Shown piece after piece: positions 62,175 through 64,000 of a stretch of DNA of 64,000 nt. Source of the stretch: Escherichia coli (GTDB lineage Bacteria; Pseudomonadota; Gammaproteobacteria; Enterobacterales; Enterobacteriaceae). Every line of letters begins with the position of its first letter. Position 1 is the stretch's first letter. The translations under genes were made by a program, and so were the position numbers. Under the pieces are notes generated by a model. The model searched no databases, was not told where the DNA came from, and saw nothing but the letters and a program-made list of their open reading frames with translations. The stretch is taken from assembly GCF_003334355.1 (NCBI RefSeq), contig NZ_QOWP01000023.1; one strand, written 5' to 3'.

Positions 62175-63131
62175 ATGAACCCGATTGCAGTTACCCTACT
62201 CACCGGTTTTTTAGGCGCGGGAAAAACCACCCTGCTGCGCCATATTCTTAACGAACAACACGGCTACAAGATTGCCGTGATTGAAAACGAATTCGGCGAA
62301 GTCTCCGTTGATGATCAACTAATTGGCGACCGCGCCACGCAGATCAAAACGCTGACCAACGGCTGCATCTGCTGTTCGCGCTCCAACGAGCTGGAAGACG
62401 CACTACTCGACCTGCTGGATAATCTCGACAAGGGCAATATTCAGTTTGACCGTCTGGTCATTGAATGCACCGGCATGGCCGATCCCGGCCCGATTATTCA
62501 GACCTTTTTCTCCCATGAGATTTTATGCCAGCGTTACCTGCTGGACGGTGTGATTGCGCTGGTGGATGCGGTACATGCCGACGAGCAGATGAACCAGTTC
62601 ACCATCGCCCAGTCCCAGGTTGGCTACGCCGACCGTATTCTGCTGACCAAAACCGACGTCGCAGGCGAAGCAGAAAAACTGCGTGAACGCCTGGCGCGCA
62701 TCAACGCCCGTGCACCGGTCTACACCGTCACCCACGGCGACATCGACCTGGGCCTGCTGTTCAACACCAACGGTTTTATGCTGGAAGAGAACGTCGTCAG
62801 CACCAAACCGCGTTTCCACTTTATCGCGGATAAACAAAACGATATTTCGTCGATTGTGGTGGAACTGGATTACCCGGTAGATATCAGCGAAGTTTCCCGG
62901 GTGATGGAAAACCTGCTTCTGGAATCGGCAGATAAACTGCTGCGTTACAAAGGGATGCTGTGGATTGACGGCGAACCTAACCGCCTGCTGTTCCAGGGCG
63001 TCCAGCGCCTCTACAGCGCCGACTGGGACCGCCCGTGGGGCGATGAAAAACCGCATAGCACAATGGTGTTTATCGGGATTCAGTTGCCGGAGGAAGAGAT
63101 TCGGGCAGCGTTTGCGGGGTTGAGGAAGTAA
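62175..63131 (+). CDS. yjiA: COG0523-family GTPase / metal chaperone YjiA
   Basis: Listed ORF contains MNPIAVTLLTGFLGAGKTTLLRHILNEQHGYKIAVIENEFGEVSVDDQL...; CxCC motif GCICCS; start trimmed to 318-aa form. Confidence 0.92.
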   Translation: MNPIAVTLLTGFLGAGKTTLLRHILNEQHGYKIAVIENEFGEVSVDDQLIGDRATQIKTLTNGCICCSRSNELEDALLDLLDNLDKGNIQFDRLVIECTGMADPGPIIQTFFSHEILCQRYLLDGVIALVDAVHADEQMNQFTIAQSQVGYADRILLTKTDVAGEAEKLRERLARINARAPVYTVTHGDIDLGLLFNTNGFMLEENVVSTKPRFHFIADKQNDISSIVVELDYPVDISEVSRVMENLLLESADKLLRYKGMLWIDGEPNRLLFQGVQRLYSADWDRPWGDEKPHSTMVFIGIQLPEEEIRAAFAGLRK

Positions 63132-63164
63132 TTTTGGATGATGGCCGCCATGTGGCGGCCTGAA

Positions 63165-63467
63165 TTATTTTTTGTTCTGATCGCGCAGCATCGCTTCACG
63201 TAAAATTGCGTTCAGGCGAGTTTGATAGCCTTTACCTGGTCGCTTCAACCATTCCATCACATCAGCATCAATACGCACCGAAGCCTGAGTTTTCAATGGC
63301 CGATAAAACTTACCGCGTTCGGCGTTAGACCATTGCTCATCGCTGGAAGGTGGGATATCACTGTAATCAATATCTTCGTCGGATTTATTCGTCAGCGCCT
63401 TCAGTTCGGCCTCATGCTGCACATCGAGTGTAGAGGAGGTCCCTCGTTTATGTTTAACCATGCTCAT
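63165..63467 (-). CDS. BrnA-like antitoxin (COG3514/DUF4415-type)
   Basis: C-terminal signature VRIDADVMEWLKRPGKGYQTRLNAILREAM; start chosen at the Met preceded by SD-like gaggaa, overlapping the upstream toxin stop (100 aa). Confidence 0.75.
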   Translation of the reverse strand: MSMVKHKRGTSSTLDVQHEAELKALTNKSDEDIDYSDIPPSSDEQWSNAERGKFYRPLKTQASVRIDADVMEWLKRPGKGYQTRLNAILREAMLRDQNKK

Positions 63468-63741
63468 AGCGATTCCTCTCTTTACGATCTGCTTTTCGTG
63501 CACTGATGATTCGAATAATTTCATTTCCGCTTTCGAAACGGATGGTATGCGCAACCAGAATAACCACGATGCCGTAAACCAGGCCGATTGTCTGCCAGCG
63601 ATACTCACCGTTTTCTATGCGTTCTTGCTGTGACAAATGTTGTGGATCATCAAACAATAACACCGCATCTTCAAAGCGGATGCCATGTTTCACCCGATTA
63701 CTTTTGGCCTTGTTTTCATCCCATTCAAACTCCATTGGCAT
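63454..63741 (-). CDS. BrnT-like toxin (DUF497 ribonuclease-type)
   Basis: MPMEFEWDENKAKSNRVKHGIRFEDAVLLFDDP...IRIISARKADRKERNRYE matches the BrnT/DUF497 pattern; start at the ATG with SD-like aggga 8 nt upstream (listed ORF begins at an upstream TTG). Confidence 0.75.
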   Translation of the reverse strand: MPMEFEWDENKAKSNRVKHGIRFEDAVLLFDDPQHLSQQERIENGEYRWQTIGLVYGIVVILVAHTIRFESGNEIIRIISARKADRKERNRYEHG

Positions 63742-63924
63742 AATTGCCATCCCTAATTGTATATACAAAAATGTATCTACAATTATTCTGCAATTATAGC
63801 GTTGATGTTGGAAATAGCATCACGTTTCGAATAATCAACCATGAAATTGACAATGAGTAAGTTGGACTTGATTCATCCAATAGAATTTCTCGCCTGACAT
63901 GGCACACTAAACACCTCGCTGTCG

Positions 63925-64000
63925 GGTAATGACTCCAACTTACTGATAGTGTTTTATGTTCAGATAATGCCCGATGACCTTGTCATGCAGCTCCACCGAT
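63925..64000 (-). mobile_element. IS1 insertion sequence, terminal 76 bp (truncated by window end)
   Basis: ggtaatgactccaacttactgatagtgttttatgttcagataatgcccgatgaccttgtcatgcagctccaccgat matches the remembered IS1 inverted repeat and adjacent insB-distal sequence. Confidence 0.85.

What the first reader, a model, noticed from the sequence alone, without database searches (positions are those of the whole stretch)
63925..64000. IS1 terminus about 180 bp upstream of the TA module
The last 76 bp match an IS1 end in inverted orientation. An insertion sequence at an island boundary can mark a recent rearrangement or disrupt a neighbouring gene. The 156 bp between the TA promoter and IS1 (63769-63924) has no obvious coding content and may be a remnant of whatever IS1 interrupted.
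Basis: seen in the sequence. Interest (0 to 1): 0.35.

Follow-up and report, generated by a model that had tools for sequence, protein, structure and literature searches.

The report
Defective IS1 marking a deleted restriction island
The last 76 bases of the window are the end of an ordinary IS1 insertion sequence, a long-dead copy that in about a fifth of complete E. coli genomes sits where the restriction-enzyme gene cluster next to the BrnT/BrnA toxin-antitoxin pair has been deleted; this is a known kind of event.

Summary
Window 63925-64000 is the outer 76 bp of the IRR end of IS1: 74/76 identical to K-12 IS1A and 76/76 to an IS1F-type copy. It reads towards brnT and lies 183 bp from the brnT start.

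The window is E. coli chromosome at the immigration control region (ICR, defence hotspot 36): ...tsr-btsT-yjiX-yjiA-brnA-brnT-IS1.

- **Shared junction.** The identical brnT-side junction occurs in 1113 of 5426 complete E. coli genomes.
- **Full element.** In genomes identical to the window's last 901 bp, the element is a complete 767-bp IS1F-type copy. It has an internal stop and a 1-bp deletion in insB.
- **No target-site duplication.** The flanks are TCGCTGTCG and AAATTTTAA. The far end abuts DNA 258 bp upstream of mdtM.
- **What is missing.** Compared with IS1-free relatives, 11.3 kb are gone: an Mrr-like nuclease gene, hsdMSR, symE, yjiS, yjiR and rpnD.
- **The 156-bp spacer.** It is the intact native brnT/mrr-like intergenic region, not a gene remnant. 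IS1 sits 13 bp before where the mrr-like gene started.

So the IS1 marks an old, inherited deletion, most likely IS1-mediated, and not a recent event. It is ordinary, already annotated and of low interest.

The parts
63925..64000 (-). Outer 76 bp of an IS1 element (IS1F type), IRR end. The rest of the element lies beyond the window edge. From 63940 onward it includes the last codons of insB on the - strand.
   Evidence: 74/76 to IS1A and 76/76 to the M217 copy. The full M217 copy is 99.0% identical to K-12 IS1F. PGAP annotates an IS1 family transposase pseudogene from L001:10841, which is window 63940.
63925..63947 (.). 23-bp terminal inverted repeat (IRR): GGTAATGACTCCAACTTACTGAT
   Evidence: In M217 it pairs with IRL at L001:11570-11592, 87% complementary with 721 nt between the arms (I1).
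63916..63924 (.). The 9 bp flanking IS1 (TCGCTGTCG), where one copy of a target-site duplication would lie. No matching copy exists at the other end in relatives.
   Evidence: The other flank in M217, F9792 and ECONIH4 is AAATTTTAA.
63769..63924 (.). Native intergenic spacer between brnT and the now-deleted divergent Mrr-family nuclease gene. Non-coding.
   Evidence: Present in 2001 genomes, with no feature annotated under the match in the 40 sampled rows. Colinear with IS1-free PSUO2 and JCM 20135 up to 63924, then diverges.
63853..63865 (+). 13-mer ATGAGTAAGTTGG matching the inner core of the IS1 terminal repeat at 12/13. It is native sequence and a possible target-attracting site.
   Evidence: 2 hits in 64 kb (this one and the IRR itself) against 0.06 expected. 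Also present in IS1-free genomes. The rest of the spacer is not IS1-like.
63454..63741 (-). brnT (type II toxin, 95 aa)
   Evidence: Pfam BrnT_toxin, E = 4.7e-24. PGAP annotation in the identical M217 sequence.
63165..63467 (-). brnA (antitoxin, 100 aa)
   Evidence: Pfam BrnA_antitoxin, E = 3.1e-17. PGAP annotation.
62175..63131 (+). yjiA, the conserved anchor gene on one side of the immigration control region
   Evidence: PGAP annotation in M217, which differs from the window at 6 of the last 10,901 bases. The ICR is defined as the variable stretch between yjiA and yjiN/mdtM (PMC12707154).

Best explanation
The 76 bp are the IRR terminus of a chromosomal IS1 of the IS1F subtype, lying in the immigration control region (ICR, defence hotspot 36) of E. 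coli.

In the lineage the window belongs to (type A), a complete but defective 767-bp IS1 occupies the place of an 11.3-kb block. That block held an Mrr-family type IV nuclease gene, a type I R-M operon (hsdM-hsdS-hsdR), symE, yjiS, yjiR and rpnD. Only brnTA remains between the anchors yjiA and mdtM.

Most likely mechanism (inferred): an IS1 copy inserted at one of the two present junctions. One of its ends, supplied with transposase in trans or before the copy decayed, was then transferred to a second site 11 kb away on the same molecule. This is intramolecular replicative transposition, the classical IS1 'adjacent deletion'. It removes the intervening DNA, keeps one IS1 and leaves no target-site duplication.

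Today the element is an immobile scar. It no longer encodes a transposase and it interrupts no gene in the window. Its lasting consequence is loss of the ICR restriction genes in the lineage that inherited it.

Shown: identity, position and orientation of the IS1 end; the shared junction; the absent duplication; the missing genes; and the inactivating mutations in relatives. Inferred: that the window's own genome continues like its identical relatives, and the mechanism and order of events.
For: - **Identity of the end.** (74/76 to IS1A, 76/76 to the M217 copy, no match in 100 shuffles).
- **Subtype.** 99.0% to K-12 IS1F and about 91% to IS1A.
- **Locus.** The window differs from M217 at 6 of 10,901 bases with no gaps. 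Annotation there runs opgB...tsr-btsT-yjiX-yjiA-brnA-brnT-IS1-mdtM.
- **Left junction.** Present in 1113 of 5426 genomes. The spacer alone is in 2001 genomes.
- **IS1-free state.** The other 887 or so carry the spacer without IS1, followed after 13 bp by the nuclease gene and hsdMSR (Mrr_cat E = 3.8e-29).
- **Right junction.** The M217-type junction is in 448 genomes, and every listed one that is also's list is 100% identical to the window's last 901 bp. It lies in the rpnD-mdtM spacer, 258 bp before mdtM.
- **Missing DNA.** 11,344 bp relative to JCM 20135.
- **No target-site duplication.** Three type A genomes all have TCGCTGTCG and AAATTTTAA.
- **Precise termini.** Both junctions fall exactly at IS1 termini, within 1 nt. 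A transposase-made joint is expected to look like this.
- **Defective copy.** An insB stop shared with K-12 IS1F, plus a type-A-specific 1-bp deletion. PGAP notes 'frameshifted; internal stop'. IS1F-type copies do not transpose detectably in K-12 (PMC12428005).
- **Context already described.** The ICR is a known variable defence island that includes brnAT (PMC12707154). ICR loss or alteration linked to IS elements has been reported for strain Crooks (PMC3032704).
Against: - The window ends 76 bp into the element. The full length, the far junction and the deletion are all read from relatives, not from this genome.
- No intermediate was found among 5426 genomes: no IS1 at either junction with the ICR still present. 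The order of events and the mechanism therefore remain inferred.
- The copy carries a nonsense mutation shared with other IS1F elements. If it was already defective when it arrived, the deletion needed transposase in trans, which IS1 uses poorly because it acts preferentially in cis.
- A second class of locus (type B, 663 genomes) has the same left junction but a different right side. This shows the site has a more complex history than a single event.
Confidence: 0.8

Rival explanations
1. The deletion arose by homologous recombination between two directly oriented IS1 copies. One was inserted upstream of the mrr-like gene (duplicating TCGCTGTCG). The other was in the rpnD-mdtM spacer (duplicating AAATTTTAA). 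RecA-dependent crossover between them excised the ICR and left one hybrid IS1 flanked by non-matching 9-mers.
For: This gives the same end product: one IS1, precise termini and no matching duplication. AAATTTTAA is an AT-rich site of the kind IS1 prefers (27% GC over 30 bp). The neighbourhood does attract IS1, since Ec-91 has an independent insertion in brnT. IS x IS recombination is a common source of deletions in E. coli (PMC5009759, listed).
Against: No genome among 5426 carries IS1 at either site with the ICR still present. It needs two independent insertions of a poorly mobile IS1F-type copy within 11 kb in the same orientation.
Confidence: 0.25
2. IS1 was captured during repair of a double-strand break or gap that had already removed the ICR. 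Insertion into an existing break produces an IS with no target-site duplication together with a large deletion.
For: IS insertions without duplications and associated with large deletions have been observed directly in E. coli C and in the LTEE, although for IS5/IS1182 and IS150 (bioRxiv 10.1101/2024.06.02.596822). The absence of a duplication here fits.
Against: This has not been shown for IS1. The present data cannot distinguish it from adjacent deletion. Both junctions are exactly at IS1 ends, which classical intramolecular transposition also predicts.
Confidence: 0.1
3. In this particular genome the IS1 is a simple, recent insertion with a 9-bp duplication, and the restriction genes lie intact beyond the window edge.
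For: The window itself cannot exclude it, because only 76 bp of the element are visible.
Against: 0 of 5426 complete genomes have IS1 at this position followed by TCGCTGTCG and the mrr-like gene. The window differs at only 6 of 10,901 bases from M217, which has the deletion. 1111 of the 1113 genomes with this junction are accounted for by the two deletion classes.
Confidence: 0.02

Closest known systems
IS1F of E. coli K-12 (the divergent IS1 copy next to the fec operon)
   Same: 99.0% nucleotide identity over the full element in relatives. Same 23-bp inverted repeats, the same A6C frameshift motif and the same internal stop in insB. It has 73 mismatches to the IS1A consensus, as published (PMC12428005).
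   Different: It sits at a different locus (ICR, not fec). The type A copy is 767 bp with an extra 1-bp deletion in insB. It has no target-site duplication.
IS1-promoted adjacent deletions (intramolecular replicative transposition; classical gal/Tn9 genetics, recalled from established knowledge)
   Same: The IS is retained. The deletion starts exactly at an IS1 terminus. Contiguous host DNA is lost and there is no flanking duplication.
   Different: This is a natural event inherited in more than 1000 sequenced genomes, inferred only from comparison. Transposase dependence is untested and the resident copy is now defective.
'Empty' or reduced states of the E. coli immigration control region / defence hotspot 36 (E. 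coli C, W, Crooks)
   Same: The same anchors (yjiA ... mdtM/yjiN), the same loss of hsd/mrr-type restriction genes, and brnAT listed as an ICR toxin-antitoxin (PMC12707154; PMC3032704; bioRxiv 10.1101/2022.06.09.495481).
   Different: The haplotype differs from Crooks, which has no brnTA and an IS3-disrupted hsd. W carries pac instead. Here the only occupants are brnTA and a dead IS1. I could not read the original E. coli C paper.

Membership tests
IS1 family insertion sequence | About 23-bp imperfect terminal inverted repeats beginning GGT(A/G)ATG | tested here: met
   IRR at window 63925-63947. In M217 the IRR and IRL are 23 nt and 87% complementary.
IS1 family insertion sequence | Element length of about 768 bp with high identity to reference IS1 | tested here: met
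   The visible 76 bp are 74/76 to IS1A. The full copy in relatives is 767-768 bp, 99.0% to IS1F and about 91% to IS1A. The window itself holds only 76 bp.
IS1 family insertion sequence | insA and insB' reading frames joined by an A6C -1 frameshift site, encoding the InsAB' transposase | tested here: inconclusive
   In relatives insA is open and AAAAAAC is present. insB has an internal stop in all IS1F-type copies, and type A adds a 1-bp deletion. The gene layout is present but the transposase is not intact. This cannot be seen in the window.
IS1 family insertion sequence | 8-9 bp target-site duplication flanking a simple insertion | tested here: not met
   TCGCTGTCG versus AAATTTTAA in M217, F9792 and ECONIH4. 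The associated 11.3-kb deletion explains this, so it does not argue against the element being IS1.
IS1-mediated adjacent deletion | IS retained; the deletion endpoint coincides with an IS terminus; contiguous DNA is missing relative to IS-free relatives | tested here: met
   Homology to IS1-free genomes breaks at 63924/63925 and resumes 11,344 bp later, exactly at the IRL end within 1 nt.
IS1-mediated adjacent deletion | Dependence on IS1 transposase and independence from RecA | not testable with these tools
   This needs genetics. No intermediates were found in 5426 genomes.
Immigration control region / defence hotspot 36 | Variable segment bounded by yjiA on one side and mdtM (yjiO)/yjiN on the other | tested here: met
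   yjiA lies at window 62175-63131. mdtM and yjiN follow IS1 in the near-identical M217. Definition taken from PMC12707154 and bioRxiv 10.1101/2022.06.09.495481.

The most novel reading that the evidence does not exclude
The dead IS1F copy is the footprint of a single ancient event that stripped the whole restriction cluster (Mrr-like nuclease plus type I R-M) from the ICR. About one fifth of sequenced E. coli have inherited or received it by recombination. A later recombination anchored in this same IS1 (type B, 663 genomes) pasted a 262-bp copy of yghX'-yghW' in front of mdtM. That made an in-frame YghW(1-16)-MdtM fusion driven by a foreign promoter. If so, one inert IS both lowered a lineage's barrier to foreign DNA and rewired an efflux pump.
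Probability: 0.35. Interest if true: 0.35.

Novelty: already known. Interest (0 to 1): 0.15.

Why it matters
It matters little in itself. IS1 is one of the commonest E. coli insertion sequences (median about 10 matching places per genome), and this copy is already annotated as an IS1 pseudogene in over a thousand RefSeq genomes.

Its practical value is as a marker. The brnT-IS1 junction identifies a widespread ICR haplotype that lacks the chromosomal Mrr-like and type I restriction genes. That may be relevant to how readily these strains accept foreign DNA. It is also a clean natural example of an IS1 scar with no target-site duplication left by a deletion.

For annotation of this window:
- Nothing in the window is disrupted.
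- The 156-bp spacer is native intergenic DNA.
- The window or contig end inside IS1 is what one expects at a repeated element.

Tried and rejected
- **Spacer as a decayed IS1 or gene remnant.** Local alignment of 63742-63924 against IS1 on both strands scored 15, against 12.6 +/- 1.6 (maximum 20) for shuffles. The spacer is colinear with IS1-free genomes. Rejected.
- **Intermediates.** I searched for IS1 plus TCGCTGTCG plus the mrr-like gene, and for the native rpnD-mdtM spacer plus AAATTTTAA plus IS1 IRR. None was found in 5426 genomes. The one apparent hit, Ec-91, is an independent IS1 inside brnT.
- **Strain Crooks (ATCC 8739).** It is reported to have an IS-altered ICR, so I checked whether it has this arrangement. 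It does not: no brnTA, and an IS3 in hsd.
- **NCBIfam.** No hits for BrnT, BrnA or the nuclease. Pfam identified all three.
- **Literature.** Sibley & Raleigh 2004 on the E. coli C 'empty' ICR is not held. One literature query was not run because of a queue error.
- **Promoter and terminator scan of 63100-64000.** It found no more sites than in shuffles and was not used.
- **Type B as an independent deletion.** I first read it as a second deletion from a common IS1-plus-ICR ancestor. I dropped this in favour of type B deriving from type A, because that needs replacement of only about 280 bp.

Full report
**1. What is at the coordinates**

The window ends with GGTAATGACTCCAACTTACTGATAGTGTTTTATGTTCAGATAATGCCCGATGACCTTGTCATGCAGCTCCACCGAT at 63925-64000. 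I fetched IS1A of K-12 MG1655. These 76 bases align without gaps to its IRR-side terminus at 74/76. They are 76/76 identical to the IS1 found at the same place in strain M217. The first 28 bases occur once in the window, and no match appeared in 100 dinucleotide-preserving shuffles. On the + strand the element starts with IRR, so insA/insB read on the - strand towards brnT. The brnT start annotated in identical sequence is at window 63741, which leaves 183 bp between brnT and IS1.

**2. Where the window comes from**

The last 901 bp have 100% matches in many complete E. coli chromosomes. The last 10,901 bp differ from strain M217 at 6 positions with no gaps. The annotation there runs opgB, lgoDRT, tsr, btsT, yjiX, yjiA, brnA, brnT, IS1 (pseudogene), mdtM, yjiN. 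Pfam confirms BrnT (E = 4.7e-24) and BrnA (E = 3.1e-17).

The stretch between yjiA and mdtM/yjiN is the immigration control region, also called defence hotspot 36. It is a well-described variable island that normally carries type I and type IV restriction systems. brnAT is listed as one of its toxin-antitoxin modules (PMC12707154; bioRxiv 10.1101/2022.06.09.495481).

**3. The whole element, read in relatives**

In M217 the IS1 spans L001:10826-11592. It is 767 bp with 23-nt inverted repeats that are 87% complementary. It is 99.0% identical to K-12 IS1F and about 91% to IS1A.

All IS1F-type copies I compared, including K-12 IS1F, share a stop codon inside insB (...VVV*MTDGW...). The M217-type copy additionally has a 1-bp deletion. 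PGAP labels it 'frameshifted; internal stop' in three genomes. IS1F-type copies do not transpose detectably in K-12 (PMC12428005). The published count of 73 mismatches between IS1F and the consensus matches mine. The element is therefore a dead copy with intact ends.

**4. Target-site duplication and what is missing**

The 9 bp outside the two ends are TCGCTGTCG and AAATTTTAA in M217, F9792 and ECONIH4. There is no duplication.

The 156-bp spacer 63769-63924 occurs in 2001 of 5426 genomes, always once, with no feature annotated under it in the 40 sampled rows. A junction-spanning query (75 bp spacer plus 76 bp IS1) is covered in 1113 genomes. The remaining 887 or so genomes, with 95-99% spacer identity, have the spacer without IS1.

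In two of these, PSUO2 and JCM 20135, the spacer runs on for 13 bp to the GTG start of a 388-aa 'restriction endonuclease'. That protein has an Mrr_cat domain (E = 3.8e-29). It is followed by hsdM, hsdS, hsdR, symE, yjiS, yjiR, rpnD and then mdtM. Homology between the window and these genomes breaks exactly at 63924/63925.

On the other side, the DNA after IRL in M217 is the rpnD-mdtM spacer, starting 258 bp before mdtM. The junction is exact to within one base. Relative to JCM 20135, 11,344 bp are replaced by the 767-bp IS1.

So the 156 bp is intact native intergenic DNA. Everything that was lost lay beyond the IS1.

**5. Two classes share the left junction**

- **Type A.** The M217-type right junction is present in 448 genomes.
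- **Type B.** A second right junction is present in 663 genomes. Together these account for 1111 of the 1113.

In type B, IS1 is 768 bp and differs from type A at 5 positions. It is followed by a 262-bp second copy of the 3' end of yghX, the yghX-yghW spacer and the first 16 codons of yghW. This patch is joined in frame to codon 8 of mdtM at the microhomology CATGCCG.

Type B can be derived from type A by replacing only about 280 bp. One crossover would lie in IS1 and one illegitimate joint at the microhomology. That is the pattern of homology-facilitated illegitimate recombination (an inference).

The window matches type A. It carries the type A base at 63392 and is about 1% diverged from type B in btsT-yjiA. 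The genomes 100% identical to its last 901 bp recur in the type A list.

**6. Mechanism**

Both junctions coincide with IS1 termini, there is no duplication, and contiguous DNA is missing. This is what intramolecular replicative transposition by IS1 produces, the 'adjacent deletion' of classical genetics. I take it as the most likely mechanism, at about 0.5 of the probability mass.

Recombination between two IS1 copies gives the same product and cannot be excluded (about 0.25). Capture of IS1 at a pre-existing break, described for other IS elements, is a third option (about 0.1).

Synthetic queries for the expected intermediates found none in 5426 genomes. Which junction is the original insertion site is therefore unresolved. 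The right site is AT-rich (27% GC), as IS1 prefers, and the left site is 50% GC. However, the left site lies 60 bp from a native 13-mer that matches the inner core of the IS1 inverted repeat at 12/13 (2 hits in 64 kb against 0.06 expected). The area attracts IS1 independently: strain Ec-91 has an intact IS1 inside brnT with the ICR present.

**7. Age**

The junction is shared by a fifth of complete genomes. The A and B copies have diverged by 0.65%, which is comparable to the roughly 1% divergence of the flanking core genes between the two classes. Each class carries its own additional changes. One type A copy shows a cluster of 10 substitutions, most simply explained by conversion from another IS1 variant. 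This is an old, inherited scar and not a recent rearrangement.

**8. Comparison with what is known, and verdict**

IS1, IS1F, IS1-associated deletions and gain or loss of restriction genes in the ICR are all established. IS-linked alteration of the ICR has been reported for strain Crooks (PMC3032704), although Crooks has a different haplotype. The element is already annotated in RefSeq.

I found no paper describing this particular brnTA-IS1-mdtM haplotype or the type B yghW'-mdtM fusion. I could not read the original E. coli C paper.

The finding is real, correctly located and ordinary. Novelty is 'already known' and interest is about 0.15. The only mildly new points are:
- the population-scale frequency of the scar;
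- the absent target-site duplication, explained by an 11.3-kb deletion of restriction genes;
- the type B patch.

Noticed in passing
L007:5925-6186 (type B relatives; not in the window): In 663 genomes the IS1 is followed by a 262-bp second copy of the yghX 3' end, the yghX-yghW spacer and the first 16 codons of yghW. This is joined in frame to mdtM codon 8 at the microhomology CATGCCG. It predicts a YghW(1-16)-MdtM fusion behind the yghW promoter.
   Followed up: partly
window 63853-63865: ATGAGTAAGTTGG matches the inner core of the IS1 inverted repeat at 12/13, 60 bp outside the IS1 end. It is native, being present in IS1-free genomes too. It may have attracted IS1 to this spot.
   Followed up: partly
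L012:2296-3063 (strain Ec-91): An independent and apparently intact IS1 (programmed frameshift, not a pseudogene) is inserted in the 5' end of brnT. The mrr-like gene and hsd operon are still present. The brnT neighbourhood is therefore hit by IS1 more than once.
   Followed up: partly
NZ_CP025842.1 (strain 720632) 2397603-2404870: The brnT-side and mdtM-side junctions lie 6.8 kb apart in opposite orientation, and the IS1 abuts an MFS transporter gene. This looks like an IS1-associated inversion at the locus.
   Followed up: no
L017:2326-3092 (strain F9792 IS1 copy): Ten substitutions cluster at element positions 316-404 relative to the M217 copy, with identical flanks and the same 1-bp deletion. 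This suggests gene conversion from another IS1 variant.
   Followed up: no
window 63754-63767 and 63772-63785: A 14-nt inverted repeat (TAATTGTATATACA / TGTATCTACAATTA, 93% complementary, 4-nt gap) lies within about 45 bp upstream of the annotated brnT start codon. It is plausibly the BrnA operator. IS1 leaves it untouched (I7, converted from L001 coordinates).
   Followed up: no
L003 / L011 (strain JCM 20135): The record's source line reads 'feces from diphtheria convalescent', which is the K-12 origin story. Its ICR, however, is the brnTA / mrr-like (pseudogene) / hsdMSR haplotype, unlike K-12 W3110 and MG1655.
   Followed up: no
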